Notes: generated by a model from the letters alone, not told the origin. DNA of 64,000 nucleotides from an uncultured delta proteobacterium (GCA_963753975.1 CAVWEH010000002.1:128001-192000), one strand, 5' to 3'. Positions 30,011 to 49,231 are shown, counted from the stretch's first letter. Translations and numbers: made by a program.

Positions 30011-30265
30011 TCAATTCAGCAGAGGGGCATGTGTATCTTCTTTATCAATCCCCAATTTCTGAATTCTTTCAATTTCATTGAGTTTCATTTTGATAACCAC
30101 AATAAGTCCGATAATGGCGAGCCAGAAAATAGCCAGGCTCGCGTAGACTGTGTAAGCGTCAACCGGTGTAGTAGGAAATACGGGGATTTTATCTTCGGCC
30201 CGGGCCATGAAACTGAAAAAAAAGATAGTGAATGCAGAAAATAATATCTTAATAAAATATTTCAT
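30011..30265 (-). CDS. Small membrane protein (signal peptide + TM helix + charged tail, CcmD-like architecture)
   Basis: MKYFIKILF...ARA|EDK...VYASLAIFWLAIIGLIVVIKMKLNEIERIQKL; starts 8 bp after the cytochrome b stop. Confidence 0.65.
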   Translation of the reverse strand: MKYFIKILFSAFTIFFFSFMARAEDKIPVFPTTPVDAYTVYASLAIFWLAIIGLIVVIKMKLNEIERIQKLGIDKEDTHAPLLN

Positions 30266-30273
30266 AAGCGCAC

Positions 30274-31338
30274 CTAACTTAAAAAGCCGACCAGAGTCAT
30301 AGTTATAAAATAAAGAAGGTAGATCACAGCAATGACTGTGAAGATTGGGCTTTTCTCTCCTCTGTTTGATTTGCGGTCGATAAATGGAATGAGGAAGAAA
30401 AATAATATTCCGACCGAGACGCAGATAATAGCAATGGTCTCGCCATTGAAACCCCAAATGGTGCCGGGAAAGAGTTTGAGTGTTTCCAACATAAAGAGAA
30501 AATACCATTCGGGTTTGATGCCTTCCGGCGGCGCAGCCAGAGGATTTGCTTTCTTACCGATTTCCGGCGGCAGGAGAATTGCCAGCGTTACCACAATGCC
30601 CAGCACCACCAGCCAGATCATCATATCCTTGTAAAAAACATTGGGGAAGAAGGGTTCTCCTTTGTTTTCTTTCTTTTCCAGAGAAACGGGAATGCTCATG
30701 CCGTGATATTGCACAAAAAGCAGATGCAGGCCGATGAGCAACAGTGAAAATACCGGCAGAATGGCCACGTGGAAGGCGTAGAAGCGGGTGAGGGTATCGC
30801 CGGTTACATCTGTGCCTCCCCTTAAGAAAATTTTTATAAAACTCCCGAGGAACGGCAAAGCGCCCGCGCCTCCTGTAGCAACACGCACCGCGGCAAAAGC
30901 CCGTTCATCCCAGAGCATTAGATAGCCGCTGAGGCCAAAGAAAATGGAGATTACCAGCAGAATAAAACCGGTCACCCAGAGAAACTCCCGCGGCTTGCGG
31001 TAAGATTTAACGAGCAGTGTGCCAAAGAGATGAATAAAGACAAAAACAATACAGAGCTGTGCTCCCCAGTGATGAACAGCCCGGAAAAACCAGCCCATAT
31101 TGATTTTCGTGACGATATCGATGATGCTTTCATAAGCGAAGTCGATATGCGGAATATAATAAAAAGCCAAGAGCATTCCCGTTATAAATTGCAGAATAAA
31201 AAGGAAAAGCGTAATGCCTCCGGTATAATACAGGAAGTCATAACGATGTTGAGGGACAAGCTTGCTTTTGGCAAGTTTCTTCAACTCGGCAATATCATAG
31301 CGCTCCTCAATCCAATTTTTAAACTTTGGCCAGATCAA
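30274..31338 (-). CDS. Cytochrome b subunit of a Rieske/cytb (bc-type) complex
   Basis: Heme His pairs in 'RAVHHWGA...FIHL' and 'AFHV...GLHL'; 'TLTRFY'; Qo motif 'KPEWYF'; b and subunit IV regions are fused. Confidence 0.93.
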   Translation of the reverse strand: MIWPKFKNWIEERYDIAELKKLAKSKLVPQHRYDFLYYTGGITLFLFILQFITGMLLAFYYIPHIDFAYESIIDIVTKINMGWFFRAVHHWGAQLCIVFVFIHLFGTLLVKSYRKPREFLWVTGFILLVISIFFGLSGYLMLWDERAFAAVRVATGGAGALPFLGSFIKIFLRGGTDVTGDTLTRFYAFHVAILPVFSLLLIGLHLLFVQYHGMSIPVSLEKKENKGEPFFPNVFYKDMMIWLVVLGIVVTLAILLPPEIGKKANPLAAPPEGIKPEWYFLFMLETLKLFPGTIWGFNGETIAIICVSVGILFFFLIPFIDRKSNRGEKSPIFTVIAVIYLLYFITMTLVGFLS

Positions 31339-31789
31339 CTTTAGCTCCCTTCCTGACTATAATCAGTTTTTCGCCTTTTTCCATTACTTCAAAAACCTGA
31401 AGCGGTTTGGGCGGTGGACCGGCAATGTTTTTGCCTGTGTCGTCAAACCAGCCCTGATGGCAGGCGCAGTAAAACTTCTTTTCCGCCGGCCGATAAGCCA
31501 CGTTGCATTCCATATGCGTGCAGACGCCTTTAAAAGCGGCAGTGCTTCCGTCTTCTCTTTTTAAAAAGATTCCCGGCACTCCACCCCAGGCAAATATTTT
31601 CGCTGAATTTTCGGGAATAGCGTCAAGATCTTTTTTGGCGAGCACTACAAAATCCGGCTCCTTGCCGAGGGTAGGGAAGGCAAATTTAAACAAGGGAAAA
31701 AGCGTAGCGGAAAAAAAAGCCACAAGCGAGCCGCCGAAAAGAGTATTGAGAAATTGTCTGCGTGTAATGAGGGAATATTTCAATTTCAT
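31319..31789 (-). CDS. Rieske [2Fe-2S] subunit
   Basis: Tat anchor 'TRRQFLN'; boxes 'CTHMEC' and 'CACHQG'; 'GPPPKPL'. Confidence 0.93.
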   Translation of the reverse strand: MKLKYSLITRRQFLNTLFGGSLVAFFSATLFPLFKFAFPTLGKEPDFVVLAKKDLDAIPENSAKIFAWGGVPGIFLKREDGSTAAFKGVCTHMECNVAYRPAEKKFYCACHQGWFDDTGKNIAGPPPKPLQVFEVMEKGEKLIIVRKGAKVDLAKV

Positions 31790-32530
31790 TTTTTTGCTTC
31801 CCTCCGTTCTTTTTTGAATTTATTTTTCAACAGTGTCTTGCGCAAGCCCACAATGCCGTCGGTAGGACGCACATCCTTCGGGCAGGCATCAATACAGCGA
31901 AATACAGTATCGCAACCCCAGACGCCTTTTTCATTATTGAAGATCTCCAGCGCCTGGGCCGATCTTTCATCACGGGAATCGGATGAAAAACGCTGTAATT
32001 TGGCCAGAGCTGCCGGACCCGCATATTCTCCGTCTCTATTTAAAACAGGGCAGGCGCCGTAACAGCAGGCGCAAAGGATGCAATTGACAAACTGATCTAT
32101 CTTCTTTCGATCATCCTCACTTTGGTATATTTCCTTATCAGGAGCGGGGCTCTTGCGTATGAGATATGGCTGTATCTTTTCATACATCTGCCAGAAGGGA
32201 GTCATGTCCACGACGAGGTCTTTGATAATTTCGAAATTGGGCAGAGGCTCCAAGATTATCGTATCTGTGTCGAAAATGGCGACCTGCGTCCGGCAGGCCA
32301 GATCAATTTTACCATTGATGACCATCGCGCACGAGCCGCAAATCGCCGAACGGCAGGAAGACCGGAAGGAAAGCGTCCCGTCAATTTCATCACGAATGCG
32401 TAAAAGCATCGCCAGATACGGTCAGGCCGGGGATAACTTTGATCTTGTAGGATACAAAGTGTGGTTCTTTCTCCGGTTCCTTGACGTCATAACGCAGAAT
32501 TTTGAAGGTATAAGTATCGCTCTTAATCAA
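31786..32530 (-). CDS. sdhB: Succinate dehydrogenase/fumarate reductase Fe-S subunit (one frameshift near 32417)
   Basis: 'SCRSAICGSC', 'CILCACCYGAC', 'CDTVFRCIDAC'; the N-terminus 'FKILRYD' lies in another frame from a TTG overlapping the sdhA stop. Confidence 0.88.
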
Positions 32531-34230
32531 TATTTCCTCTCCATGGGTTGATAGTTGGTAATGACAACGTCTTTATAAGAGATGACCGGCTCTCTCTTTT
32601 TGCCCATTTTGACGATGGTGTGCTTGAGCCACTTCTTATCGTTTCTCGTGGTATAGTCGCGCCGGAAATGAGCGCCGCGGCTCTCCTCACGCAGGAGCGC
32701 GCCCAGAACAATGGTATGCGCTACTTCCAGCATATACTCGAACTCCAGCGCATTGTGCAGTTCATAATTCATGTGCTTATCCGCGGAGGAAATGCTGACG
32801 TTTTTGTATCGTTCCTTGATTTTTATGACTTCATCCAGTGCTTGAGCAAGTTCTATTTTAGTACGGAAAATACCTACTTTTTCGCTCATTAACGCGCCCA
32901 AATCCGCCGCCAGCTTGTAGGGCCTTTCCCCGCCCGGTTTCGTAAGACACGCAATCTTTTTTTCCACTTCTTTTTTTAAATTCTGCAGAGGTTTATCTTT
33001 AGGTTTTAAATTAGTTGCTGACAATTCTTCATCAATGGCTCGGGCGGCAAGTTTCCCGAAGACGATGGTATCAAGAAGCGAATTTCCGCCGAGCCGGTTG
33101 GCGCCGTGGACGCTCACGCAGGAGCATTCACCCGCGGCGTAAAATCCTTTTATAGCGGAGGCGCCTTTTTCATTGACATCGATGCCGCCCATCGAATAAT
33201 GCTGAGAAGGCATAATTGGAATCGGCTCTTTGACCGGATCGATACCGATAAAATCGATACAGATACTACGAATACCGGGAAGACACTCCAAAATCTTCTT
33301 TTCCCCCAGATGGCGTAAATCCAGCTGAATATATTTTCCCAGTGGATGATCAAAACCGCGGCCTTCATTAATTTCCGTCTGGATACAACGTGAAACAATA
33401 TCACGCGGCGCAAGTTCCATGGCCGAGGGCGCATAATTTTTCATGAAGCGCTCACCGCGGTTGTTAAAAAGAACACCACCTTCTCCCCGACAACCTTCGG
33501 TCATCAGAATATTCGTGCCGATAAGAGTTGTGGGGTGAAACTGGACAAACTCCATATCTTTCAAGCCCACTCCGGCCTTATAAGCCATGCCGATGCCGCT
33601 GCCGGTATTGATGAGAGCGTTAGTTGAGTTGCGGTAAACTCTTCCGTAGCCGCCGGTCCCGAATATAGTTACTTTGGCGCGCACAGGGATTAGTTCGCCT
33701 GTGTGAATATCGAGAATAACGACGCCGTGGCATTGGCCGTCTTCCACGCATAGGCTCGTAACAAACCATTCGGGATAGATTTTGACTCTTTTATAAACAG
33801 CTCTTTCATAAAGAGTGTTCAAAAGCGAATGGCCGGTGACATCGGCGGAATAGCAGGTGCGCGGGTAGCCTCCTCCGCCGAAAGGGCGCTGCGCGATCGT
33901 TCCGTCGGGAAATCTGCTGAAAGGGCAGCCCCAGTGCTCCATTTCATAGACAATTCCGGGGGCTTCCTTGCACATGATTTCAATCGCATTCTGATCGCCC
34001 AGATAATCACTGCCCTTGACCGTATCGAAGGTATGCTTTTCCCAGGAATCGTCACGGCCGGCGGGATTGTTGGTGAGCGCCGCGTTGATGCCGCCCTGCG
34101 CGGCTATGGAATGTGAACGCACGGGATAGACCTTGGAAATCAATCCCACATCGTATTTATCGCAAAGACCGACGGCCGCCCTGAGTCCGGTCAAGCCGCC
34201 GCCAACTATTAGAATATCGTGAGTAAGCAT
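32527..34230 (-). CDS. sdhA: Succinate dehydrogenase/fumarate reductase flavoprotein
   Basis: FAD-His 'RSHSIAAQGG', 'QFHPT', 'TEGCRGEGG', 'HYSMGG', 'HGANRLGGNSL'; no signal peptide. Confidence 0.95.
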   Translation of the reverse strand: MLTHDILIVGGGLTGLRAAVGLCDKYDVGLISKVYPVRSHSIAAQGGINAALTNNPAGRDDSWEKHTFDTVKGSDYLGDQNAIEIMCKEAPGIVYEMEHWGCPFSRFPDGTIAQRPFGGGGYPRTCYSADVTGHSLLNTLYERAVYKRVKIYPEWFVTSLCVEDGQCHGVVILDIHTGELIPVRAKVTIFGTGGYGRVYRNSTNALINTGSGIGMAYKAGVGLKDMEFVQFHPTTLIGTNILMTEGCRGEGGVLFNNRGERFMKNYAPSAMELAPRDIVSRCIQTEINEGRGFDHPLGKYIQLDLRHLGEKKILECLPGIRSICIDFIGIDPVKEPIPIMPSQHYSMGGIDVNEKGASAIKGFYAAGECSCVSVHGANRLGGNSLLDTIVFGKLAARAIDEELSATNLKPKDKPLQNLKKEVEKKIACLTKPGGERPYKLAADLGALMSEKVGIFRTKIELAQALDEVIKIKERYKNVSISSADKHMNYELHNALEFEYMLEVAHTIVLGALLREESRGAHFRRDYTTRNDKKWLKHTIVKMGKKREPVISYKDVVITNYQPMERKY

Positions 34231-34232
34231 AA

Positions 34233-34538
34233 TTACGAAACCCTGACAAAAAAGTAAATTAAAACGGCCGAAACAGCCGCTGCCGCAATGTTCGATACCC
34301 AGAACAACTGCTTTTCCTTGCGGTAACCAAAATCAATAATGATAGTGCGAATACCGTAGATGCTGTGAAAAGTAAAAAGAATCAGGATAAGAACATCAAT
34401 AACCGGATTCCTGTGCAGACTCAAAGCCCAGTCCGGCCGATTATCTTTGGGCAAAAGAAAGTAGCCGGTCAAGATTTTGATGCCGATCAGAACGATCAGC
34501 GTCGCTCCGCTAATGCGATGAAAAAGCCAAATGAACAT
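34233..34538 (-). CDS. Small 3-TM succinate dehydrogenase anchor (SdhC-like)
   Basis: 'WLFHRISG' and 'FHSIYGIR' motifs; only 101 aa. Confidence 0.82.
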   Translation of the reverse strand: MFIWLFHRISGATLIVLIGIKILTGYFLLPKDNRPDWALSLHRNPVIDVLILILFTFHSIYGIRTIIIDFGYRKEKQLFWVSNIAAAAVSAVLIYFFVRVS

Positions 34539-34569
34539 ATGTTCCCCCTACCTGTTTGTGATTAAACCC

Positions 34570-35352
34570 TCATTTTCCTTTATAGCTCGGTTTTCTTTTT
34601 TCCAAAAAGGCCTTCATGCCTTCCGTTTGATCTTCACTGGCAAAGGCCAGAGAGAAAGACGCTCTTTCAATAATTTTGCCCGTGTAGTTATCAACATCTT
34701 GCGAATTTTGCACCGAATATTTTGCTAAACCAACAGCGACCGGACTGTGCCGGGTGATCATCTTGGCCATGGCAAAAGTTTCTTCCATCAATTTATCATC
34801 AGGAACAACTTTATTTACAAGGTTGATAGACAGAGCCTCTGCGGCCGAAATCATTTTGCCGGTAAGGACAAGCTCTTTGGCTTTACCTAAGCCCACCAGC
34901 TTGGAAAGACGAACCGTTCCGCCAGCACCGGGAATAATACCGATATTAATTTCCGGCTGGCCGAATTGCGCGCTTTCTCCGGCGATGCGAATATCACAGC
35001 CCATGGCTAATTCACAACCGCCGCCCAGGCAGAAACCGGCAATTGCCGCAATAAACGGTTTTCTCGATTCTTCCATTCTCAATGTTAGATCCCAAAGCTC
35101 CGAGTTGGAAAACATCTCCATAGAGGTGTTATTGACCATGGCGGCAATATCCGCTCCCGCAGCAAAAACCTTCTGGCCTCCGGTGAGGATGATGGCGCGC
35201 ACATTCGCATCCGCTTCCATATCGGCGATCGCCCGGGCTAATTCCGTTCGGACGGTTTGATTGATCGCATTGCGCACTTCGGGACGGTTCAGGGTAATGA
35301 TGCCGAGTTTCTCCTCGGCTTTTTTCTCTACAATAATAGCAGTATAACTCAT
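34570..35352 (-). CDS. Enoyl-CoA hydratase (crotonase family)
   Basis: 'FAAGADI', 'GGGCELA', 'QPEINIGIIPGAGG' with both catalytic Glu. Confidence 0.93.
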   Translation of the reverse strand: MSYTAIIVEKKAEEKLGIITLNRPEVRNAINQTVRTELARAIADMEADANVRAIILTGGQKVFAAGADIAAMVNNTSMEMFSNSELWDLTLRMEESRKPFIAAIAGFCLGGGCELAMGCDIRIAGESAQFGQPEINIGIIPGAGGTVRLSKLVGLGKAKELVLTGKMISAAEALSINLVNKVVPDDKLMEETFAMAKMITRHSPVAVGLAKYSVQNSQDVDNYTGKIIERASFSLAFASEDQTEGMKAFLEKRKPSYKGK

Positions 35353-35371
35353 GGATATCCTCCTTCTAGAT

Positions 35372-37207
35372 TTAATTAACCACCAATGATTCTTCCGGGC
35401 AAGCAATCACAATATCTTCTTCACTCTTAATCAGCTCTGTAGTGAGAAATGCTTGGGGAAGTATGTTATTTAAGTAATAGCGGGCGGACGCGATTTTGCC
35501 CTCGTAAAATATTGCCTCGCTTGTTCCTTTTTTCTGTCCGGAGAGCTTTTGCGAGGCAATCAACGCCTGTTCCAGAAGGCATTGACTTACAAAGACCTGT
35601 GAACAGACAAAGAGCGCCCGCATAGCGTTAAGTGGTATCAACTGCCGCTTGGCATCAAAATTACCATACCAGGAATCAAAGGTTCTCTTAACTTCCGTCA
35701 GGGCTTGATAACCTGTGTCCAGATTTTTCATTTCCTTCTCCAAGCCTTTGGCTTTCATGTTGGCATCGATAAATTCCTTGATGGAAGCGAGCCAGTGAGC
35801 AAAAGGTGCCCCTTCCTTCATGCGCATTTTGCGCCCGACCAGGTCGTTGGCGTGAATAAACGATGTGCCTTCCCAAATGGTCAAAATCTTGGAATCACGC
35901 AGATATTGTTCTACCGGATATTCCGTGGAGTAGCCGACGCCTCCTAAAACCTGAATCGCTTCGGCGATAACACCGAGGCTTGCTTCACTGCCATAGCCTT
36001 TAACCAGGGGTGTAAGAATTTCAGCAAACTCACCGTATTTTTTAGCTTTTTCTTTATCAGAAGAGTTACCCTGAATATCCAAATAATAAAACCCCTTGAA
36101 AATCATCGCCCGGATTCCTTCGACCGTGGCTTTCATGTCGAGAAGCATGCGGCGAATATCTTCATGTTTGATAATCGGTACGCGATCGGCGTTTTTGATG
36201 CCGAAAGGACGGCCCTGAATGCGTTCCGTGGCATACTGGGAGGCAAAATAGTAAGCGGCTGCGGCCTGCGTATTAGAATTATGGCCGGTGCCGATTCGCG
36301 ATTCGTTCATCATGTGAAACATCATGGAAAGGCCTTGAGAAAAGCCTCTGGCATCGGGAGCTGGGCCGAGCATAATACCACGGCAGTTATCGTCGTCGCC
36401 GAAATTAAGTAGTGCCGTCGCCTGCGCGTGCAGTCCCATTTTGTGCTCGATGCTGACTGTGACGACGTCATTATGTTTGCCCAGAGAGCCGTCATCATTT
36501 ACCCATATTTTAGGGACAATATAAAGTCCGATACCTGGCGAGCCGGGCGCTCCTTTTTCGGGACGTGCGAGTACGAGATGGATCGTATTTTCACCCGTGC
36601 CCTGGTCTCCGGCAGTGATGAACATTTTGGTTCCTTTGATCTTCCAGATACGGGGATCTTCAGTGGGATAGGCGTGCGTGATGATATCACCGGTATCCGA
36701 ACCGAAGTTCGGTTCGGTCAGGCACATTGTTCCCTGCCAATCGCCGCTGAGCATTTTCGGAATGAACATGTCGTTATCTTTTTGAGCACCGAAACGCAGG
36801 ATAAGATTGGCCGCGCCGCTGGTTAATTTTACGCAGGAGGTAAGGGCGGGGCAGGCGGCGGTATTCATTTCCGCGATAGCCTTGTACAGGATCAGGGGCA
36901 TTCCTGTTTCGATTTTGATACATTCGCTGCTGGAACCCCAGCCATTTTGCTGTAAAAACTGGTAGGCTTCTTTGAAACCGGGAACAGGCGTCACCTTGCC
37001 ACCTTCGAACTTAACGCCAATTTTGTCTCCCGGGGCGTTGATGGGATTGACGATTTCCCGCGCCACCTTATAACCTTCGTTCAGCAGCATTTCCACATCA
37101 TCGAGGCTGAAATTTTCCTTGAATCTGTTGCAGGCAAGCACTTCTTCGGCAGGCAACCATTCCCTAAGAATGAATTTCAAATCTCTCAGGTCGTACTTAA
37201 ATTCCAT
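35372..37207 (-). CDS. Long-form (~600 aa) acyl-CoA dehydrogenase
   Basis: 'GTMCLTEP', 'GTKMFIT', 'MFHMMNESR', 'IWEGT', 'GKIASARYY'. Confidence 0.93.
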   Translation of the reverse strand: MEFKYDLRDLKFILREWLPAEEVLACNRFKENFSLDDVEMLLNEGYKVAREIVNPINAPGDKIGVKFEGGKVTPVPGFKEAYQFLQQNGWGSSSECIKIETGMPLILYKAIAEMNTAACPALTSCVKLTSGAANLILRFGAQKDNDMFIPKMLSGDWQGTMCLTEPNFGSDTGDIITHAYPTEDPRIWKIKGTKMFITAGDQGTGENTIHLVLARPEKGAPGSPGIGLYIVPKIWVNDDGSLGKHNDVVTVSIEHKMGLHAQATALLNFGDDDNCRGIMLGPAPDARGFSQGLSMMFHMMNESRIGTGHNSNTQAAAAYYFASQYATERIQGRPFGIKNADRVPIIKHEDIRRMLLDMKATVEGIRAMIFKGFYYLDIQGNSSDKEKAKKYGEFAEILTPLVKGYGSEASLGVIAEAIQVLGGVGYSTEYPVEQYLRDSKILTIWEGTSFIHANDLVGRKMRMKEGAPFAHWLASIKEFIDANMKAKGLEKEMKNLDTGYQALTEVKRTFDSWYGNFDAKRQLIPLNAMRALFVCSQVFVSQCLLEQALIASQKLSGQKKGTSEAIFYEGKIASARYYLNNILPQAFLTTELIKSEEDIVIACPEESLVVN

Positions 37208-39961: not shown

Positions 39962-41146
39962 TTAATTTATGAGGAGGGCTTTGCGTTTTTTATTGACCTT
40001 CTGGACAATTTTAGCTACGCCATCTCTGAGATTATCAACGGTTTCGACGTTCAGCCCTGATTGAGAAAGAAGGCTTTTGCCTTCGGCAAGGCGGCTTCCA
40101 TCCATCCTCACCACGATAGGGAGGCTGCAAACTATATCCGTTGTGGCGTCAATAATACCTTGAGCGATTATGTCACAGCGCATAATGCCGCCGAAAATGT
40201 TAACAAAAATTCCTTTTACCTTTTTATCTTTTAAAATAATCTTAAAAGCCTCGGCCACTTTTTCCCTGTTTGCTCCGCCGCCGACATCAAGGAAGTTAGC
40301 CGGTTCGCCCCCACATTCTTTCAAAGCATCCAGTGTGGCCATGGCCAGACCGGCGCCATTCACCATACAGCCTATGTTTCCGTTTAATTTTATATAAGCG
40401 AGGTCAAATTTTTTAGCCTGAATTTCCAGAATATCCAACTGTGAAAAATCAATCATTTTTTCATAATCAGGGTGACGGAAGAGAGCATTGTCGTCGAAAT
40501 TTATTTTACAGTCCATGGCTATCAATTTACCGGCCTTGCCGACAGCAAGAGGATTAATCTCAACTAATGAGCAATCCTTTTCTAAAACTATTTTATACAA
40601 ATTCTGCACGAGTTTAACGCCATCATCGACAATTTTGCCTTTCAGTCCCAGGGCTAGGGCCATTTCGCGGGCCTGATAGGGCCGTACTCCAAGAAAAGGA
40701 TCAATATAAAGAGTATGAATTTTTTCGGGTGACACGCGCGCCACTTCTTCGATATCCATGCCTCCTTCGGCAGAAGCGATAAGGCAATAGCGGGATGTCT
40801 GTCTATCCAGAGTGATGGAGAGATAAAACTCTTTTTCGATTTCCACGATTTCCTCAATAAGAATATACTTGACGGCCAGCCCCTTACTCCCGGTCTGAAT
40901 AGTCACCAGTTTCTTTTTAAAGAGTTCTTTTGCCGCCTCAACGGCTTGAAGTGGATCCTGCACTTTCATTACCCCTCCGGCTTTTCCGCGGCCACCCGCG
41001 TAGATCTGCGCTTTCAATACGCAGGGCCGACCGAATTCCTCCAGAACCTTCTGTGTTTGGCGGATCGTTTTTACCATTCTTCCGGCCGGCACGGGGATAT
41101 CGTATGATTTCAGAATCTCTTTGGCCTGGTATTCATGAATATTCAT
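39962..41146 (-). CDS. sucC: Succinyl-CoA synthetase beta subunit
   Basis: '[10 protein letters not shown]', 'GGRGKAGG', 'NGAGLAMAT', 'NFLDVGGGA'. Confidence 0.97.
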
Positions 41147-41238: not shown

Positions 41239-42396
41239 TTATACTCTGTTGGGAGCATAACCGAGCGCGGCGTTAGCCACGATCATAGTATGCATATTGG
41301 ATGTTCCTTCCAGCGTTTCGAATTGTTTGGCATCGCGCAGGAATCGGCCGCAGGGATATTCATCGGAATATCCAAACGATCCGAATAACTTCATGCATTC
41401 GTTGGCCGCATGAACGACCTCTTTGGCTCCGTAAAGTTTGGACATCGATGTTTCCATCACGTTGGGAAGTCCTTTATCCTTCAGCCAAGCCGCTTTGTAA
41501 ACAAGATCAGCCATTGCGGCATGTCCCATTTTCATTTCCGCGATCTGTTGCTGAATCAACTGGAATTTGCCGATCTTTTGTCCAAACTGAGATCTTTCGT
41601 TAGCGTATTTGATGGAGGCTTCCAGGATGGCTCCGGAAAGTCCTACTGCACCTGCAGCACATCCGAGCCGTGTGGCATTTAGCTGCGTCATGCACATTTG
41701 AAATCCTTTGTTGACGGTTCCCAGAACGAGTTTTTTCGGCACCTTCACATCTTCAAAAGTAATTTCCGCCGTATCGGAAGCCAAGAGTCCCACTTTTTCA
41801 TGAATCTTTTTACGGGTAATGCCGGGGAGGCTATAATCCATGAGAAAGCAGGTGATCCCATTGGCTCCGGCGTCCTTATTCGTCTTTACATATAATAAGC
41901 CATGATTGGATACTGTTCCGTTCGTAATCCACATCTTATTGCCATTGAGGAGATAATGATTGCCCTTGTCTTCCGCCAAGCATTTCATACCGGCCACATC
42001 GGAGCCGATATCGGTTTCCGTCATGGCGAAGCTGCCGATATATTCACCGCTGACAAATTTAGGAATGTAATGCTGCTTCTGTTCCTCTGTTCCGAATTTT
42101 TGAATGGTCAAAGAAGGTCCCCAACACTGCATGTTAAAGGCCATACGCCAGGATGTATGGACTTTGGCGATTTGTTCGATGACCAGGGCACCTTCCAAAT
42201 AACCCATGCCGTTTCCACCATATTTCTCATCAATGCAGAAACCGAAAAAACCTAATTCAGCCATTTTATCGAATATTTCCTTGCGCCAATGCTGGCTTTT
42301 TTCATCTTCTTCCACATGAGGTTTGATTTCATTTTCGGCAAAATTCCTTGCCATGTCCTGAAGTATTTTTTGTTCTTCGGTTAATCCAAAATCCAT
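41239..42396 (-). CDS. Acyl-CoA dehydrogenase, probably non-decarboxylating glutaryl-CoA dehydrogenase
   Basis: ACAD motifs; 'SWRMAFNM' (R-x3-N) and C-terminal 'NR' resemble the carboxylate-binding residues of the Desulfococcus enzyme; co-operonic with gcdA. Confidence 0.78.
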   Translation of the reverse strand: MDFGLTEEQKILQDMARNFAENEIKPHVEEDEKSQHWRKEIFDKMAELGFFGFCIDEKYGGNGMGYLEGALVIEQIAKVHTSWRMAFNMQCWGPSLTIQKFGTEEQKQHYIPKFVSGEYIGSFAMTETDIGSDVAGMKCLAEDKGNHYLLNGNKMWITNGTVSNHGLLYVKTNKDAGANGITCFLMDYSLPGITRKKIHEKVGLLASDTAEITFEDVKVPKKLVLGTVNKGFQMCMTQLNATRLGCAAGAVGLSGAILEASIKYANERSQFGQKIGKFQLIQQQIAEMKMGHAAMADLVYKAAWLKDKGLPNVMETSMSKLYGAKEVVHAANECMKLFGSFGYSDEYPCGRFLRDAKQFETLEGTSNMHTMIVANAALGYAPNRV

Positions 42397-42426
42397 GTTT
42401 AAAATCCTCCCAATTTTTTCTTTAAA

Positions 42427-43691
42427 CTATTTTCTTTCCACGATCAGGCAGATGCCCTGACCGCCGCCGCCGCATATGGTTTCGAGACCGTAACGGCAAT
42501 CTCTGCGAGTCATTTCGTTAATCAGCGTTGTTAAGCGCATTACACCGGTAGCACCGATAGGATGCCCCAAGGAAATTCCGGAACCGTTAACGTTTACTTT
42601 TTCATCCATTTCTTTGTCTTTGATGCCGGAAAGACGGGCATCAGCCAGCGCCTGAACGGCAAAAGCTTCCTGAACTTCGATGAGACCAATCTGGTCAATG
42701 GTAGTTTTTATTTTTTGCAGCGCTTTTTGAACGGACGCAGGCACGGCGGGGTAGGTCAGTTTTGGATCGGTTGCCGCTACCGCACAAGAACGGAAATAAG
42801 CGAGAGGCTTTATTCCCAGCTCTTTCGCTTTTTTTTCGGAAGCGAGCATTATAACCGCTGCGCCGTCATTTTCAGAAGAAGAGTTTCCGGCTGTACAAAC
42901 ACCACCGGAATAAACAGGCTTTAGCTTGGCTAATTTTTCCAGAGTAGTTTCTCTTCTCGGACCTTCATCTACATTGAAGAAAGTCATCTGTTCGCTCTTA
43001 CCTTTACCGACAGGCACGGGAACGATTTCTTCAGCAAATTTTCCGGCATCCTGCGCCGCAATCGCTCTCTGATGGCTCCGGAGTGCCCACTGATCGGCTT
43101 CTTCCCGCGTTATTTTTTCTTTTTTGGCCGCGGCTTCGGCCCAGGTCATCATGGAACTGAGTTCGCCGTAGCGGGCAATGGGCTGCGACATAACGCGCGC
43201 GCGCTGGATGCGATCATAGAAGGGGATTCCCCACATGGCCAGAGCGCCGTGTCCTCTGGGCATAAAGCCGTATTTTTCATGAGTCTTGCCTCCCAGTCCC
43301 CACTTGATATCACCGGGAATATATAGTTCGGCCTGGCTCATAGAGTCCATACCGCCGGCAATAACAATATCAGCATTTCCCGTTTGTATTTTCATGGCAC
43401 CGAAAAAAATAGCATCCAGACCCGAACAGCAACGCCGGTCAAGAACAACTCCCGGAACGCTGTCCGGCCAGCCGGCTTCCAGAACTGCCATGCGCGCGCC
43501 GTTGGCGCATTCGCCGTTTTGATAAGCCGTTCCCATAATCACATCTTCAATCTGTGCCGGATCTATTTTTGCCCGTTTAACAATTCCTGCAAAACAATAG
43601 CGCCAAGTTTATAAACAGGAATATCTTTTAGAGAACCACCGTAAGCGCCGATAGGAGTGCGCACACAATTTAAAATGACAACGTTTTCCAT
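42427..43691 (-). CDS. Thiolase (acetyl-CoA C-acyltransferase), one frameshift near 43583
   Basis: N-terminus 'VRTPIGAYGG' in a separate frame; 'DRRCCSG', 'EAFA', 'GHPIGATG', 'CGGGGQG'. Confidence 0.9.
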
Positions 43692-43717
43692 GATTTCATC
43701 TCCCCATAATTTTTATT

Positions 43718-44605
43718 TTAAAAATTTAGGTCTTTTCTCGGCTTCTTTTCTCCAGATGTATAATCATACCATCCTTTTCCTGTTTTTTTGCCGAGATCTC
43801 CGCTTAATACCATCTTTTCTAGGAGCAGGGGAGGGCGAAATTTCTTGTCTTTATATCCTTCATAGAGAGTTCTAAAAACGTTAAGACCGATATCTAACCC
43901 TACTGCATCATTTAATTCGAATGGCCCCATGGGATGATTAAGTCCCAACTTGACGGCCTTGTCTATATCTTCGAGGCTGGCTACTCCCTCCAACAAACAA
44001 GTAAAAACCTCCGACCGAAATGCCGCATTAATCCGGTTTACAAGAAAACCGGGCACATCCTTTACGCGTACCGTTTCTTTTTTGAGATTGAACGCTACTT
44101 CTTGCGTTATTTTCACAGTATCGTCAGATGTTTTAAGGCCGGGAATAATCTCCACGAGCCTCATTATTCCTACGGGGCTGAAAAAATGCATGCCGATAAA
44201 TTTTTCCGGCCGCTTCACGGTTGTAGCGAGCGAGGTAATGGGGATAGAAGAAGTGTTGGTGGCTATTATTACATCTTTTTTGCAAAGAGCATCGAGTTTT
44301 TCGAATATGGATTTCTTCACCTCGAAATTTTCAAAAGCGGCTTCAATAATAAAATCGGCCTTTTTTGCCGCTTCCAGATCGGCTGATTTGCTGATTCTGG
44401 ATAAAATAGCATCTTTATCGGCGGGGGTTATTTTTTCCTTCTGTACCTGGCCGTCGAGGATCCTGCCGATGGAATTGAAGCCCTTGTCGATAAACTCCAT
44501 TTTTACATCATTCATGATGACGTTATATCCGGCCTGGGCGGAAACTTGCGCAATGCCCGATCCCATGAGTCCGGAACCAATAACCATAATATTTTTGATA
44601 TCCAT
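43718..44605 (-). CDS. 3-hydroxyacyl-CoA dehydrogenase
   Basis: 'GSGLMGSGIA', 'ATNTSSI', 'GMHFFSP', 'PMGPF'. Confidence 0.95.
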   Translation of the reverse strand: MDIKNIMVIGSGLMGSGIAQVSAQAGYNVIMNDVKMEFIDKGFNSIGRILDGQVQKEKITPADKDAILSRISKSADLEAAKKADFIIEAAFENFEVKKSIFEKLDALCKKDVIIATNTSSIPITSLATTVKRPEKFIGMHFFSPVGIMRLVEIIPGLKTSDDTVKITQEVAFNLKKETVRVKDVPGFLVNRINAAFRSEVFTCLLEGVASLEDIDKAVKLGLNHPMGPFELNDAVGLDIGLNVFRTLYEGYKDKKFRPPLLLEKMVLSGDLGKKTGKGWYDYTSGEKKPRKDLNF

Positions 44606-44653
44606 ATTTCTGCTCCTTGCTTATAGTTTCTAATCCTGTCCTGACAAAAGATC

Positions 44654-44669
44654 AGCAAATATCATACCA
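44654..44669 (-). promoter_or_regulatory. Sigma-54 (-24/-12) promoter of the catabolic operon
   Basis: Minus strand TGGTATG-ATAT-TTGCT, 49 bp upstream of the first ATG. Confidence 0.8.
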
Positions 44670-44904
44670 CTTGTATTGTTGTGCTCTAAAATTGCCCTAT
44701 GGCCGTACAGGGTAGAGAATTTCTTGTCTTATTTATGATTCGTGACGTTCCCCACAGCCTCATTAGGGCTGAAAAATAGCAAATTGGAATTTCGTCATCA
44801 TTTATTCTAAAATACGTTTTTGTTCCCAAGGAAATTGTTTTGTATGTTTTTTATTGATTATTTTGTATTAATTGTATACATAATTATCTTAAGAAAGAAA
44901 AAAT

Positions 44905-46269
44905 ATGGAAAAAATTCCTCAATTCTTAATAAAAACCATACAGGATATCTCTGATGCTGCCGTAATCATTGATGAATATAATTATGTTTATTATGTAAAC
45001 AATAAATTTGAATCTCTCTTCAACTATAAAGGTAGCGGCAGAAGAAAAACAAAATGTGATTTTCTTTCGTCTCTCAACCTAAAAGCGTCAGTCAGAATGA
45101 TTACTTCACCCCAGTCCGTAACAATTCCCGGCAGTCAACGAAAAATCAGCTTATTTGTCTACTTATTAAACAAATCAAAAAACAAAGATCATTTTTATCT
45201 TATAATTGCCCGGGATTCGGAAAAAAAAGATAGTAAATCTTACGGGCTAAAAAAATTTAACCCTTATGAAGATGAGGAAAAATTTAGGACTGAAAAACTT
45301 TCTCCCGAGTTTAGCGAGTTAGTAGGTGAGAATATAGAATTTAAAAAAGCCCTGGTTATTGCTCAGAGAGCCGCAAAATCCAATATCTCTGTGCTGATCA
45401 TTGGAGAAAGCGGTACGGGTAAAGAAATATTGGCGCGCGCGATACATAGTACGAGTAAACGGAGTGGAAGGCCATTGATCGATGTCAATTGTGCTGCTAT
45501 CCCGGATACTTTAATCGAAAGTGAACTATTTGGATATGAAAAAGGGGCGTTTACCGGAGCAAGAACCGACGGAAGCAAGGGATATTTCGATGAAGCTCAT
45601 GAAGGAACTATTCTTCTGGATGAAGTTGGAGACGCGTCGCTTCAGACGCAGTCAAAACTATTAAGAGTTCTGGAATCGGGTACTTTCAAGAGGGTAGGTG
45701 GTACGAAAAATATTAAGGTTGACGTCCGCATAATATCTTCTACGAACAGAGATTTAACCTCTTTGATCGAACAGAAGGCATTTAGGGAAGATCTTTTCTT
45801 TCGCTTAAACGCTTTTACTATATACCTTCCGCCGCTCAGAGAGCGCAGAGAAGATATATCTCTTCTGATCGACTATTTTCTTAAGTCCAATGACGATATT
45901 GAAAAACGAAATTTAAAATTTTCCTCTTCAGCTATGGAAATTCTCAACTCGTATCACTGGCCGGGAAATGTTCGTGAATTGAAAGGCGTGGTGAGCTATG
46001 CTGTCAATATGAGCAGAGATTCAATAGTAACTCCCAGCTCACTTCCGAATTTTCTATTTGCCCAAGACCCGGGACCGAATCCTGTCGGTTTACCAATAAC
46101 TTCTTTGCCGGATGAAACTCACAATCTCATAGAAGCTGTTAAGAGTTTGGAAAGAAAATTAATTAAAGAAACCCTGGTAACATCCGTGAACAGAACCATG
46201 GCCATAAAAAAACTGGGGATCAGCAGACGAACTTTTTACATCAAAATGAAGCAATATGGTTTTGATTGA
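44905..46269 (+). CDS. Sigma-54-dependent transcriptional activator (PAS-like/AAA+/Fis-HTH)
   Basis: 'GESGTGKE', '[15 protein letters not shown]', 'WPGNVREL', C-terminal HTH. Confidence 0.96.
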
Positions 46270-46342: not shown

Positions 46343-46358
46343 TGGAACGTATTATGCA
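46343..46358 (+). promoter_or_regulatory. Putative sigma-54 promoter of the HMGL-like gene
   Basis: TGGAACG-TATT-ATGCA with correct GG-N10-GC spacing. Confidence 0.6.
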
Positions 46359-46430: not shown

Positions 46431-47396
46431 TTGAAGAAGGAAAATAAAGCAACCATTGTAGAAATATCTCCACGCGACGGTTTACCGGCCGTGTGTAAAA
46501 GCCTTTCGGCGGACAATGAGGTGATGTTTATAAATAAACTATCTCGAGCCGGCTTTAAAAAGATAGAATGCGCATCTTTCTTGCATCCGCGTCTTTTGCC
46601 GAGAAACTATGATGCAGAAAAAATTATTGACGGGATCGAGAAGCAATCGGGAGTAACCTATGTGGGATTGGTGCCTAACGAGATCGGCTGCCGGCGCGCG
46701 TTGATTACTCAAATTGACGAAATTCTTATGCTCGTGGCCGCGAGCGATATCTTCAATAAAATTACGATGGGACGAACACTAAAGGAAACCGTAAACAAAA
46801 CTCTGCCTGCTATTTTCGACGCTACGGGCAAAAGCGGAAAGAGTGTCAGAATCTATATTCTGACCGCTTTTGGTTGTCCCTATACAGGAGTGATTTCATC
46901 CGAAGAAGTATTACAACTTGTATTGAAACTAAGTTATATGGGGGCGACAGAAATTTCTCTTGTCGACTCGACCGGTATGGCCAATCCCAAAAAGGTGAAG
47001 ACCCTTATAAAATCCATTCTTGATTTGAATCTAAATATTAATCTCGCCGTGCATTTCCACAATACCAGAGGTGCGGCTATCGCGAATTGTGTCGCCGCAT
47101 ATGAGGCCGGTATAAGAATTTTCGACACTTCACTGGGCGGCATGAGCGGAACACCTTACGGTTCGATGGAACTTGATCTGGGATACTGGAACGTGCCGAC
47201 GGAAGATCTTGTTTACTTGTTTGAAGAAATGGGGATAAAAACAGGGGTCGATTTCAACCTTCTTCTGGAATGCGTTAAAATTGCGGAAAAATTTACCGGA
47301 GAACCGCTACCCGGGCACCTTCTCCGAGCGAATCCTAATTTCAGCAAATCAAAAGTGTCCGATAATCATAAACCGCCAATGCATTTGGATGTATGA
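46431..47396 (+). CDS. Hydroxymethylglutaryl-CoA lyase family protein (divergent)
   Basis: 'PRDGL', 'AFGCPY', 'DSTGMANP', 'HFHNTRG', 'NVPTEDL'; TTG start. Confidence 0.85.
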   Translation: MKKENKATIVEISPRDGLPAVCKSLSADNEVMFINKLSRAGFKKIECASFLHPRLLPRNYDAEKIIDGIEKQSGVTYVGLVPNEIGCRRALITQIDEILMLVAASDIFNKITMGRTLKETVNKTLPAIFDATGKSGKSVRIYILTAFGCPYTGVISSEEVLQLVLKLSYMGATEISLVDSTGMANPKKVKTLIKSILDLNLNINLAVHFHNTRGAAIANCVAAYEAGIRIFDTSLGGMSGTPYGSMELDLGYWNVPTEDLVYLFEEMGIKTGVDFNLLLECVKIAEKFTGEPLPGHLLRANPNFSKSKVSDNHKPPMHLDV

Positions 47397-47428
47397 TGAC
47401 GTGTAAATGTAGTAAACGATTTATGTGC

Positions 47429-49231
47429 CTAGCGTTGTGATTCATCACCTCTAAGGAAAAAACGTTTCGGATCGAAACAACGCATAAGTTTTAATTCCTC
47501 TGCCGAAGGCAAGGGAAGAATCTGCAGTTTGCTTTTTACTTTCAATTTCCAGCCGCATTGTTCCTGAATACTCCTCACAGATTCCTCTTCCGATGCCGAG
47601 GGAGTTACAGGAAAGTATCCGGTCAATACCAGTTCATTGTTTCCCACTTCCTTTTCCCATATTCCCAACTGAGAAATTACGGTGGTTACTCTAATACCCG
47701 GTGACGTTATATAGGCGACTTTTTCCACAAAGCGGCTATTGTTTTGCTCCAAAGTAACGACCGTTTCATTGGCACTCGATGCCACATCATTGGCTCCTCC
47801 GGACCCGACTAAAAAAGGCCCTGTTGCGGATAGTCTTGTCGTATTTACATTTCCCAACACATCGACTTGACCCGCTCCGATAACTCCAATGCTGGAAGTT
47901 TGGGAACCGCCCATAATAATGCCTAGGGAAGTAAAGATATCCGAAATCATCTTACAGGAAGGAATGTTACGCAGATTGAATACATAAGGATCGGATGGTT
48001 GAGGAGAGTAACCATAGTAACCGATTTCCGCCACCAGCTCCAGAGGGTATTCTTCCCGACGCAATTTATAATAAGCCAACCAGGCGGCAAGATTCGAAAC
48101 ACCGATGCCGCAAAGAGCCAAACAATATTTTTTTGTTTTAACAATTTCCATAATTTTATGGGAAGAGGCGCTAACCAAACGTTCGGCGGGTGTTGATTCT
48201 TGGGGAGAGGGGAGACGACCGGCTGAAACGGAAAGTTCAGATATCCAGGAATCGTTTTGTATTTTTCCTTTTAAATGCCAAATACGCTGTTGCCCGAGAC
48301 GGGAAAGAAAATCTTCATGATTCTTGCAGCCCAGTACCCATTTTTCCACCCAAGCCTGATATTCATCGGAATTTCGGGCAGCTTTTCGTGCTTCTATAAT
48401 CCATTCTTCATCTTCTCCATATCCTTCCAATTCGGAGACACCTAGAGCATGAATGCCCATAGGATGACCGCCCATAGGTACAGGGCAGACCGCTTTGACG
48501 ACATATCCGGGAAGGCGAGTCATATGAGCGTGGCGCCGGATAAAGTCGGCATCGACAATTTTCTCGACAGTGACGATCACACCCTCCTTCGCTGCCAGTG
48601 CTCCAAAGTGATTTCCGGAGTGCGGCGCGGACATAATGGTATTACCGTCTTTATCTGACGCCCATCCGTGAGCTATGGCAATATCCGGATTATAGGCTTT
48701 AACAACACTTGCCGATTCTCCCTCTGTAAAGGGATTGGAAATTTGACAAAAACTGTCTTTATTTTCAACTTCCATGGAACTCCCGCGAATTGATTTAGTA
48801 GGGAAAAATGGTACTCCCAATGCTCCGGCCATAAAGCGAAGCACAATCGTTAATTGCGTCCAATTTTCCAGCGAGACAGCTCCCTCTCTCAGAGCTCGGG
48901 CAAGGATGGGATTGGGGCCAGGGAAGGGATACCCGTCGCCGGCGAAGGCGACAATAATTTTATTACATAACTTTCCATGAACGAAAAGAGCAATATTGTA
49001 AACATTTCCGGAAATTCCAATAATGGTGAATCGGGGATTTTTTCCCCAAAATTGTCTGGCGATTTCAAAAAAAATGGGTGTCGGCGTGGTCATGCCGTTT
49101 CCGAATTGAATGCTCATCTGCGGTCGGACAAACCGGCGTACGGCTTCAGATAGTTCCATAACTTTACCCGTGCCGCAAGAATCCCGGAATGTCAATTTTT
49201 CCTCTAGAAAACTTTTCAGGTGATTATCCAT
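47429..49231 (-). CDS. Family I CoA transferase, fused alpha+beta (glutaconate CoA-transferase-like)
   Basis: Alpha part 'RFMAGALGVPF', 'PDIAIAH', 'VTVEKIV'; beta part 'AEIG', 'GQVDVLGNVNTT', 'GSGGANDVAS'. Confidence 0.87.
   Translation of the reverse strand: MDNHLKSFLEEKLTFRDSCGTGKVMELSEAVRRFVRPQMSIQFGNGMTTPTPIFFEIARQFWGKNPRFTIIGISGNVYNIALFVHGKLCNKIIVAFAGDGYPFPGPNPILARALREGAVSLENWTQLTIVLRFMAGALGVPFFPTKSIRGSSMEVENKDSFCQISNPFTEGESASVVKAYNPDIAIAHGWASDKDGNTIMSAPHSGNHFGALAAKEGVIVTVEKIVDADFIRRHAHMTRLPGYVVKAVCPVPMGGHPMGIHALGVSELEGYGEDEEWIIEARKAARNSDEYQAWVEKWVLGCKNHEDFLSRLGQQRIWHLKGKIQNDSWISELSVSAGRLPSPQESTPAERLVSASSHKIMEIVKTKKYCLALCGIGVSNLAAWLAYYKLRREEYPLELVAEIGYYGYSPQPSDPYVFNLRNIPSCKMISDIFTSLGIIMGGSQTSSIGVIGAGQVDVLGNVNTTRLSATGPFLVGSGGANDVASSANETVVTLEQNNSRFVEKVAYITSPGIRVTTVISQLGIWEKEVGNNELVLTGYFPVTPSASEEESVRSIQEQCGWKLKVKSKLQILPLPSAEELKLMRCFDPKRFFLRGDESQR

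What the first reader, a model, noticed from the sequence alone, without database searches (positions are those of the whole stretch)
30011..49231. Sigma-54-controlled dicarboxylic-acid catabolic island linking beta-oxidation, glutaconyl-CoA decarboxylation, substrate-level ATP and a membrane redox module
Seen: 14 consecutive minus-strand genes follow a -24/-12 promoter (44654-44669): hydroxyacyl-CoA dehydrogenase, thiolase, glutaryl-CoA-dehydrogenase-like ACAD, sucC, sucD, gcdA, long ACAD, hydratase, the sdh genes, Rieske, cytb and a small ORF. A divergent GAFTGA activator, an HMGL-like lyase with its own -24/-12 motif and a fused CoA transferase are adjacent. Known: odd-chain dicarboxylates (pimelate, glutarate) pass through glutaryl-, glutaconyl- and crotonyl-CoA; even-chain ones (adipate) yield succinyl-CoA, which SucCD converts to succinate with ATP formation. 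Inference: one regulon handles both odd- and even-chain (perhaps branched) diacids and also disposes of the succinate, a compact candidate pathway for anaerobic or syntrophic adipate/pimelate degradation.
Basis: partly seen in the sequence, partly recalled or inferred. Interest (0 to 1): 0.75.

Follow-up and report, generated by a model that had tools for sequence, protein, structure and literature searches.

The report
Diacid operon with Sdh-Rieske/cytochrome b tail
An uncultured anaerobe of the family Smithellaceae carries a conserved operon that looks built to break dicarboxylic acids down to acetyl-CoA and succinate, and it ends in an unusual succinate dehydrogenase joined to a Rieske/cytochrome b complex, which may be how these bacteria drive the energetically uphill oxidation of succinate.

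Summary
The 14-gene run, the activator and both -24/-12 sites are real, and both sites are conserved in 7 of 7 activator-bearing genomes. The organism belongs to Smithellaceae. Corrections: thiolase, sucD and sdhB are frameshifted here but intact in relatives; there is only one Sdh anchor gene; no Na+-pump subunit gcdB was found; the 'GDH' is a paralogue with changed pocket residues; the HMGL-like protein lacks the catalytic Cys. A diacid substrate is likely, but which one is not shown. The tail, sdhC-sdhA-sdhB-Rieske-cytochrome b-small membrane gene, is a separate module seen in 7 Desulfobacterota families, once closing a methylmalonyl-CoA cluster; SdhB-Rieske fusions occur in other lineages. 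In this family sucC, sdhA and cytochrome b occur together or not at all. Best reading: diacid beta-oxidation yields succinyl-CoA, and the module oxidises the succinate, possibly by a reversed Q-cycle. The main rival is an ordinary serial chain to a cytochrome c encoded elsewhere. The scan noted the module and the glutaryl core before, on other DNA; their junction is what this locus adds.

The parts
44654..44669 (-). sigma-54 -24/-12 promoter of the 14-gene operon
   Evidence: conserved in 7 of 7 activator-bearing genomes
43718..44605 (-). 3-hydroxyacyl-CoA dehydrogenase
   Evidence: Pfam 3HCDH_N/3HCDH
42427..43691 (-). thiolase; one-base frameshift near 43581, intact (421 aa) in G002 and G009
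41239..42396 (-). acyl-CoA dehydrogenase, paralogue of non-decarboxylating glutaryl-CoA dehydrogenase: Arg84, Asn88 and Glu363 kept; Met85 where 3mpi has Val and Leu362 where it has Val
   Evidence: (373.9 bits, cut-off 470)
39962..41146 (-). sucC, succinate-CoA ligase beta subunit; only copy found in the genome
   Evidence: (over cut-off)
39051..39931 (-). sucD; two one-base frameshifts near 39594 and 39527, intact (291-292 aa) in G002, G009 and G012
37263..39023 (-). gcdA, glutaconyl-CoA carboxyltransferase; no gcdB/gcdD behind it or found elsewhere
35372..37207 (-). long (611 aa) acyl-CoA dehydrogenase of the FadE5-like class
34570..35352 (-). enoyl-CoA hydratase
34233..34538 (-). single 3-helix Sdh membrane anchor (SdhC/D fold): His58 invariant, Lys21 and His42 at least 90% conserved
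32527..34230 (-). SdhA flavoprotein with the full dicarboxylate site (H40, H232, T244, E245, R276, H344, R379) and the SQR-type Gln45
   Evidence: Gln/Glu rule from PMC10308238 section 13; roles of the other residues recalled from E. coli SdhA
31786..32530 (-). SdhB iron-sulfur subunit, start overlapping the sdhA stop; one-base frameshift near 32416
31319..31789 (-). Rieske protein with twin-Arg anchor, disulfide cysteines, and Gly113/Phe115 at the positions that raise the potential in bc1 (role recalled)
30274..31338 (-). 7-helix cytochrome b: four invariant haem His, PEWY motif, no haem-ci Cys, no cytochrome c domain
30011..30265 (-). 84-aa protein with two hydrophobic stretches (probable signal peptide plus one membrane helix); last gene of the module
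44905..46269 (+). divergent sigma-54 activator (Walker A, GAFTGA, HTH)
46343..46358 (+). second -24/-12 site, before the HMGL-like gene
   Evidence: 7 of 7 genomes
46431..47396 (+). HMG-CoA-lyase-like protein: R15-D16 and H208-x-H210 kept, catalytic Cys replaced by Thr241 here and in 4 of 4 relatives read
47429..49231 (-). fused GctA-GctB-type (class I) CoA transferase with catalytic Glu402

Best explanation
A sigma-54 activator switches on a catabolic operon for dicarboxylic acids in a syntroph-type Smithellaceae bacterium. Shown: the genes, their order, the conserved promoters, the enzyme families and key residues. Inferred: the CoA transferase activates the diacid; the long ACAD, hydratase, dehydrogenase and thiolase shorten it by beta-oxidation. 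Odd chains end as glutaryl-type CoA, which the GDH-like ACAD and GcdA turn into crotonyl-CoA. Without GcdB the CO2 probably passes through the stand-alone biotin carrier to pyruvate or propionyl-CoA carboxyltransferases encoded elsewhere. Even chains end as succinyl-CoA; SucCD releases succinate, the Sdh module oxidises it to fumarate, and FumAB, MDH, the pyruvate carboxyltransferase and PFOR take it on to acetyl-CoA. The last six genes form one membrane enzyme, SdhAB plus a single haem anchor plus Rieske/cytochrome b. Least certain step (about 0.35): succinate electrons reach the low-potential Rieske centre through the anchor and reduce menaquinone at the PEWY site by a reversed Q-cycle, spending up to 4 charges of proton-motive force per succinate.
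For: Diacid chemistry. Operon conserved: hydratase and long ACAD lie directly before sdhC in 13 of the 18 cytochrome b loci that reach sdhC (23 loci in all). Co-occurrence: of 10 other-genus family genomes (95-100% complete), only G021 has sucC, sdhA and this cytochrome b, and 9 lack all three, including G018 and G023, which keep thiolase-ACAD-gcdA or ACAD-gcdA. Module as a unit: complete in 14 of 18 further long loci of the best-scoring cytochromes b, from six more families. Its neighbours there are succinate genes: a methylmalonyl-CoA cluster with mutase, epimerase, carboxyltransferases and fumarase in G081, fumarase/MDH or sucCD/2-oxoacid oxidoreductase in G141, G171, G309, G072. SdhB is fused to a membrane-anchored Rieske domain in G038, G154, G103 and G065 and in 41 of 120 listed homologues, among them Calderihabitans maritimus and an Acidobacteria MAG. 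SdhA is SQR-type. Succinate to menaquinone is uphill (+30 versus -80 mV, PMC5947623). A coupled forward cycle would cost 46-58 kJ against 21 kJ available, so if the parts are coupled only the reverse direction works (potentials recalled).
Against: No substrate is shown; the GDH paralogue differs from true non-decarboxylating GDH at two pocket positions and falls below the NCBIfam cut-off. The fused SdhB-Rieske forms belong to a different cytochrome b clade than this one, and in G103 the flavoprotein lacks the succinate site, so the fusion is only indirect support. Cytochrome c maturation (ResB) is present in 20 of 22 verified module genomes, and G000 has monohaem and multihaem cytochromes, an MtrB-like porin and cytochrome bd, so an outside acceptor exists. 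G000 has no MqnA/D and no menC/D hit, only MenA-like and MenG genes. I found no formate dehydrogenase (the single molybdopterin-family match lies in a hydrogenase cluster) and no Tat-exported hydrogenase, so the sink for menaquinol is open. Three genes are frameshifted in this assembly.
Confidence: 0.55

Rival explanations
1. Same catabolism, but an ordinary serial chain: a self-contained Sdh (the anchor as a homodimer) reduces menaquinone, and a separate Rieske/cytochrome b complex oxidises the quinol in the forward direction, passing electrons to a soluble cytochrome c encoded elsewhere and on to humic substances, Fe(III), a partner cell or oxygen. The genes are only co-regulated.
For: ResB in 20 of 22 verified module genomes; monohaem and multihaem cytochromes, NrfD-type proteins, an MtrA/B-like pair and cytochrome bd in G000; the nearest cytochrome b relatives sit with multihaem cytochromes c (99/99 clade).
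Against: MtrB-like porin in only 7 of 22 verified module genomes (3 of them weak) and 0 of 6 in family f19; no cytochrome c gene in any split-type module locus read; only one anchor gene in 18 of 18 loci that reach it; overlapping start/stop codons from sdhA to cytochrome b.
Confidence: 0.3
2. The succinate branch runs the other way or serves activation: SucCD spends ATP to make succinyl-CoA as CoA donor for the transferase, and Sdh acts as a fumarate reductase (electron sink) on fumarate made from oxaloacetate after transcarboxylation from glutaconyl-CoA to pyruvate.
For: A class I CoA transferase is adjacent; gcdB was not found in 6 of the 17 gcdA-bearing genomes among the 41 searched; G000 has a pyruvate carboxyltransferase, biotin carrier, MDH, fumarase and mutase; G018 has a pyruvate carboxyltransferase and a malic enzyme-like gene inside the cluster.
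Against: SQR-type Gln in SdhA; activation alone gives no net succinate, yet sucC and sdhA track together; a Q-cycle coupled to fumarate reduction is not affordable.
Confidence: 0.12
3. The true substrate is a branched or hydroxylated diacid or an omega-hydroxy acid rather than adipate/pimelate; the Cys-less lyase, the altered GDH and the aldehyde oxidoreductase-alcohol dehydrogenase fusion of relatives handle the branch or the alcohol end.
For: GDH pocket changes and Cys-to-Thr in the lyase are conserved; an AOR-ADH fusion lies inside the operon in 8 relatives (G002, G003, G007, G008, G009, G011, G012, G013).
Against: GcdA is close to the solved glutaconyl-CoA enzymes; the AOR-ADH gene is missing from this operon and from 7 loci where gcdA directly precedes the long ACAD. 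This reading can hold together with the best one.
Confidence: 0.2
4. In this strain the operon is decaying: thiolase, sucD and sdhB are real pseudogenes.
For: 4 indels in 14.3 kb against 1.2 expected from the genome background (Poisson p about 0.03); they are not clear homopolymer slips.
Against: 20 of 250 orthologues compared with G011 are frameshifted, and so is rpsL (1 of 28 translation genes queried); per gene the excess is not significant (3 of 14, p about 0.10); no substitution stop seen; the gcdB-less layout is shared by 7 other loci.
Confidence: 0.25

Closest known systems
Non-decarboxylating glutaryl-CoA dehydrogenase (PDB 3mpi) with Na+-pumping glutaconyl-CoA decarboxylase GcdABCD (GcdA: PDB 1pix, 3gf3) of strict anaerobes
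   Same: GDH-like ACAD with the carboxylate-binding Arg/Asn two genes from a bona fide GcdA; gcdD/gcdB follow gcdA in several relatives.
   Different: The ACAD is a separate paralogue (two pocket Val replaced by Met and Leu; true GDH seen in G026 and G029); no gcdB found here; sucCD, a full beta-oxidation set and Sdh are in the same operon.
Class 3 dihaem succinate:menaquinone oxidoreductases (M. smegmatis Sdh2, PDB 6LUM; Bacillus; SdhABC of Syntrophobacter fumaroxidans and Pelotomaculum)
   Same: SdhA/SdhB with canonical site and SQR-type Gln; the anchor's best fold match is 6LUM (E 0.026, probability 1.0); same job of uphill succinate oxidation (PMC12663545, PMC5947623, PMC10308238).
   Different: One 3-helix anchor gene instead of SdhC plus SdhD or one 5-helix subunit; Lys in place of the distal His of helix I; Rieske and cytochrome b genes attached.
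Rieske/cytochrome b complexes (bc1, b6f, and Desulfobacterota forms with multihaem cytochrome c)
   Same: Four haem His, PEWY, twin-Arg-anchored disulfide Rieske protein; in one clade with multihaem-linked forms.
   Different: No cytochrome c gene in the operon, no haem-ci Cys; a small membrane protein follows cytochrome b and Sdh genes precede it.
Mycobacterial Sdh1 with a membrane-embedded Rieske cluster (Zhou et al. 2021; title seen only in a reference list)
   Same: A complex II with a Rieske cluster.
   Different: There the cluster lies inside the anchor subunit (recalled); here it is a separate bc-type Rieske protein with its own cytochrome b.
Geobacter metallireducens aromatic-degradation region with sucCD (Gmet_2068-2069)
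   Same: A sucCD copy exists at these locus tags (PMC2700814); that it lies by the benzoate/glutaryl-CoA genes and feeds a CoA transferase is recalled.
   Different: That GDH is the decarboxylating type (recalled); no attached Sdh-Rieske/cytochrome b module is known to me.

Membership tests
sigma-54 regulon | GG-N10-GC promoter plus nearby activator with GAFTGA | tested here: met
Glutaconyl-CoA decarboxylase (Na+-pumping GcdABCD) | GcdA carboxyltransferase | tested here: met
   E=6e-224 over 2-581
Glutaconyl-CoA decarboxylase (Na+-pumping GcdABCD) | membrane beta subunit GcdB | tested here: not met
   0 matches in G000, 95% complete; present behind gcdA in 7 relatives
Glutaconyl-CoA decarboxylase (Na+-pumping GcdABCD) | biotin carrier | tested here: inconclusive
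   a stand-alone 70-aa carrier lies far away at C2:712.5 kb; its partner is unknown
Non-decarboxylating glutaryl-CoA dehydrogenase | Arg and Asn binding the distal carboxylate; catalytic Glu | tested here: met
   R84, N88, E363 align to 3mpi; residue roles recalled
Non-decarboxylating glutaryl-CoA dehydrogenase | Val before the catalytic Glu, and score over the NF045552 cut-off | tested here: not met
   Leu362; 373.9 bits against 470. It is not the Tyr of decarboxylating GDH either (recalled)
HMG-CoA lyase | R-D motif and H-x-H metal ligands | tested here: met
   260.7 bits against cut-off 246
HMG-CoA lyase | catalytic Cys in GGCPY | tested here: not met
   GTPY in the window and 4 of 4 relatives
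Succinate:quinone oxidoreductase (complex II) | FAD-binding His and dicarboxylate-site residues in SdhA; SdhB with three clusters | tested here: met
   SdhB is frameshifted near its start here, intact in G011
Succinate:quinone oxidoreductase (complex II) | complete anchor: two 3-helix subunits or one 5-helix subunit | tested here: not met
   one 3-helix gene in 18 of 18 loci that reach it; no second copy in G000 by tblastn. A homodimer was not tested
Rieske/cytochrome b complex | cytochrome b with four haem His and PEWY; Rieske boxes with disulfide and membrane anchor; Tat system | tested here: met
Rieske/cytochrome b complex | high-potential acceptor (cytochrome c1, f or c) encoded with it | tested here: not met
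   none in the operon or in split-type loci; cytochromes c exist elsewhere in G000
Rieske/cytochrome b complex | Q-cycle turnover and its direction | not testable with these tools
   needs membranes or purified complex
CcmD of cytochrome c maturation System I (for the 84-aa gene) | Ccm system in the genome | tested here: not met
   CcmE over cut-off in 0 of 30 genomes; CcmD_alt only a 0.88 lead

The most novel reading that the evidence does not exclude
The six-gene tail encodes a cytochrome-c-free fusion of complexes II and III in which the Sdh anchor takes the place of cytochrome c as redox partner of the Rieske protein, so the enzyme runs a reversed Q-cycle and uses about four charges of proton-motive force to reduce menaquinone with succinate. 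Recruited behind a diacid beta-oxidation operon, it lets Smithellaceae oxidise even-chain dicarboxylates such as adipate completely to acetate in syntrophy, and it plays the same part in a methylmalonyl-CoA cluster (G081).
Probability: 0.3. Interest if true: 0.85.

Novelty: new variant of a known kind. Interest (0 to 1): 0.58.

Why it matters
How syntrophs pay for succinate oxidation is an old question: about two-thirds of an ATP is thought to be invested (PMC5947623). The known answer is a dihaem Sdh plus a periplasmic redox loop. A complex II joined to a Rieske/cytochrome b unit would be a second solution and a new respiratory architecture. This locus gives the module a concrete substrate context, and a family of genomes with and without it. 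It also supplies candidate genes for anaerobic breakdown of even-chain diacids. The individual catabolic enzymes are known kinds, and the scan has noted the module before.

Tried and rejected
Complex prediction of cytochrome b + Rieske + SdhC + 3 haems, SdhC scored: no answer, score 0.00, controls not folded; it counts neither way. Sequencing runs: no RNA holder listed and all shares were under 0.1; contigs of 4 runs laid on 30000-44700 did not settle the frameshifts. Sigma-70 promoter and terminator scan: at shuffle level (35 vs 31.0; 20 vs 24.2). Fumarate recycling for an alkylsuccinate synthase: the one glycyl-radical enzyme in G000 scored best, below cut-off, to the PFL2/dehydratase subfamily, and no alkyl- or benzylsuccinate synthase model was listed; set aside, not excluded. 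Malic enzyme: not found in G000. 'Small gene is CcmD' rejected. 'Horizontally acquired island' rejected. 'Missing gcdB means decay' rejected. The promoter regex had the wrong spacing and was redone. Literature: searches (module; pathway) listed nothing describing an Sdh-Rieske/cytochrome b unit or this operon; most subscription journals are not in the library, and Dibrova 2013 and Wischgoll 2009 were not held, so absence from print is not established.

Full report
Observation. Fourteen genes run on the minus strand from 44605 to 30011 with gaps of -20 to 92 nt. The -24/-12 site at 44669-44654 is the only strict match in the window. The motif alone means little (20 in the genome, 11.3 in shuffles), but it and the site at 46343 are conserved in 7 of 7 genomes that carry the activator; G021 lacks the operon site, and no activator lies in the stretch fetched from it. 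Thiolase, sucD (twice) and sdhB carry one-base frameshifts and are intact in relatives. The assembly is indel-prone: 20 of 250 orthologues of G011 genes switch frame (300 ORFs queried), as does rpsL. The operon's 4 indels are somewhat above that rate (p about 0.03 per base, 0.10 per gene), so error is likelier than decay but not proven.

Organism and conservation. Close relatives are titled Smithellaceae, Smithella or Syntrophaceae MAGs. The cytochrome b is in 12 of 14 same-genus genomes, gcdA in 11 of 14. Of 23 loci found with the cytochrome b, all have the Rieske, sdhB and small genes; 18 reach sdhC; 13 of those continue into hydratase and long ACAD, and 5 (two titled Syntrophorhabdaceae/Syntrophorhabdus) have unrelated neighbours. 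Between gcdA and the long ACAD, relatives insert gcdD-gcdB, an AOR-ADH fusion, or ACAD-FixCX-EtfAB-carboxyltransferase; 7 other loci have the compact layout seen here.

Catabolic half. GcdA is unambiguous. GcdB was not found in G000, nor in G001, G007, G011, G021 and G025, four of them 97-100% complete, so a pump-less form is stable. G000 encodes a stand-alone biotin carrier, a pyruvate carboxyltransferase and an MmdA-like protein elsewhere, which makes transcarboxylation the likely fate of the CO2 (inference; earlier notes of the scan propose the same for other loci). The short ACAD keeps Arg84, Asn88 and Glu363 of the non-decarboxylating GDH but has Met and Leu where 3mpi and the GDHs of G026 and G029 have Val: a diacid enzyme of uncertain chain length. 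The CoA transferase is a GctAB-type fusion with its Glu. The lyase-like protein keeps its metal site but has Thr for the catalytic Cys here and in 4 of 4 relatives; its reaction is unexplained. Fumarase, MDH, PFOR and methylmalonyl-CoA mutase are in the genome, so succinate can be taken to acetyl-CoA; PFOR and mutase were recognised from ORF sequences and tblastn, not from a profile scan of G000. Among 10 well-assembled genomes of other genera in the family, sucC, sdhA and this cytochrome b are all present in one and all absent in nine, two of which keep gcdA and the ACAD. These genomes are kin, so this is a pattern and not a statistic, but it ties SucCD to Sdh and argues for net succinate flux.

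The tail. sdhC-sdhA-sdhB-Rieske-cytochrome b-small gene is an independent unit. In a sample of 301 phylum genomes, 126 had a cytochrome b match. I read long loci for 18 of the 19 best hits outside this family (G110 not read): 14 carry the whole module, 3 carry multihaem cytochromes instead, and 1 has no Sdh nearby. With this family that makes 7 families. In G081 the module closes a cluster of sucCD, mutase, epimerase, two carboxyltransferases, fumarase and a decarboxylase beta subunit; in four others it sits by fumarase, MDH, sucCD or a 2-oxoacid oxidoreductase. SdhA has the full site and the SQR-type Gln in all 8 split-type sequences checked (rule from PMC10308238, abstract and section 13 read). 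The anchor is one 3-helix protein of SdhC/D fold with invariant His58 and conserved Lys21 and His42. Cytochrome b has four haem His and PEWY, and no cytochrome c domain. The Rieske protein has a twin-Arg anchor, TatC is present, and Gly/Phe at the potential-raising positions point to a low potential (interpretation recalled). SdhB-Rieske fusions exist: G038, G154, G103, G065 and 41 of 120 listed homologues. Their cytochromes b fall outside the clade of this one, which groups with multihaem-linked forms (27 rows, split b6-type rows left out), and G103's flavoprotein lacks the succinate site while those of G038 and G154 keep it. The fusion therefore shows that the linkage is feasible and recurrent, not that it holds here.

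Mechanism. Succinate (+30 mV) to menaquinone (-80 mV) is uphill and is thought to cost about two-thirds of an ATP in syntrophs (PMC5947623, passages). Class 3 dihaem enzymes use the proton potential for it (PMC12663545, passages). If the anchor passes electrons to the Rieske centre, a full Q-cycle moves 4 charges per 2 electrons, worth 46-58 kJ, against 21 kJ for quinol to fumarate (potentials recalled), so a coupled enzyme could only run as proton-motive-force-driven succinate oxidation. Shown: gene linkage, residues, co-occurrence. Inferred: one complex, the electron path, the direction. Against it: ResB in 20 of 22 verified module genomes (the 30 handles also held 2 fused-type, 1 unverified and 5 module-less genomes), cytochromes c, an MtrA/B-like pair and cytochrome bd in G000, although MtrB is in only 7 of the 22. 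G000 shows only the last menaquinone steps, and no MqnA/D was found in 24 of 24 other family genomes, so precursor salvage is assumed. No formate dehydrogenase or exported hydrogenase was seen, which leaves the quinol sink open.

Known and new. The catabolic enzymes are known kinds; the combination, the pump-less GcdA and the attached module are variants. Searches (listings and abstract starts only) showed no description of the module or operon. PMC12727194, PMC5600118, PMC2700814 and PMC13386864 were seen as passages and did not describe it. Two key papers were not held, and no supplements were read. The scan's earlier notes report the module on other DNA, two of them marked as partly fallen on later checks, and the sigma-54 glutaryl core in a Smithella; a word search for their junction returned nothing. 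My reading of the module was written down before I saw those notes.

Verdict. Observation partly confirmed, interpretation partly supported; new variant of a known kind; interest 0.58, carried mostly by the Sdh-Rieske/cytochrome b module and the substrate context this locus gives it.

Noticed in passing
G038, L031:8868-10118 and 7310-8866; G154, L116:8751-11906: SdhB fused through a twin-Arg helix to a Rieske domain, followed by a cytochrome b-cytochrome c fusion and a small anchor, next to sucCD, fumarase or 2-oxoacid oxidoreductase genes; the flavoproteins keep the succinate site.
   Followed up: partly
G103, L117:9722-14703: A fused-type module beside dsrAB-like genes whose flavoprotein lacks the FAD-binding His motif and catalytic Thr, so probably not a succinate enzyme.
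   Followed up: partly
G081, L125:10458-17329 and L099:9-11302: A methylmalonyl-CoA gene cluster in a Syntrophales genome ending in the same module; a candidate propionate oxidiser outside the Smithella route.
   Followed up: partly
G018, L154:202-12485: Long ACAD, methylmalonyl-CoA mutase, pyruvate carboxyltransferase and a malic enzyme-like gene flank thiolase-ACAD-gcdA, with no sucC or sdhA found in the genome; G025 also has mutase and MeaB beside gcdA. Possibly another exit for succinyl-CoA.
   Followed up: partly
G000:C5:653396-664347: Two NrfD/NrfC-type sets with 4-, 7- and 10-haem cytochromes, a decahaem and an MtrB-like porin, flanked by rhodanese-like genes: a possible extracellular electron conduit in a presumed syntroph.
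   Followed up: partly
G000:C1:39295-43726 (L118): An 838-aa glycyl-radical enzyme with activase, below the cut-off of every named family.
   Followed up: partly
L024:19165-19701, L027:13796-14380, L025:278-748: In several relatives extra sequence that may be a small repeat element lies in the 5' part of the small membrane gene and lengthens or shifts its N-terminus, while the C-terminal helix stays conserved.
   Followed up: no
L021:3177-9271 (G011): In place of gcdD/gcdB, an ACAD-FixC-FixX-EtfB-EtfA-carboxyltransferase block sits inside the operon.
   Followed up: partly
window:29428-29907: A desulfoferrodoxin-domain gene with an RR-containing N-terminus converges on the operon end, as in G010, G011 and G013.
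   Followed up: no
G000:C5:133502-135137 (L150): MenA-like prenyltransferase next to MenG, without the upstream menaquinone pathway; MqnA/D not found in 24 of 24 other family genomes searched.
   Followed up: partly
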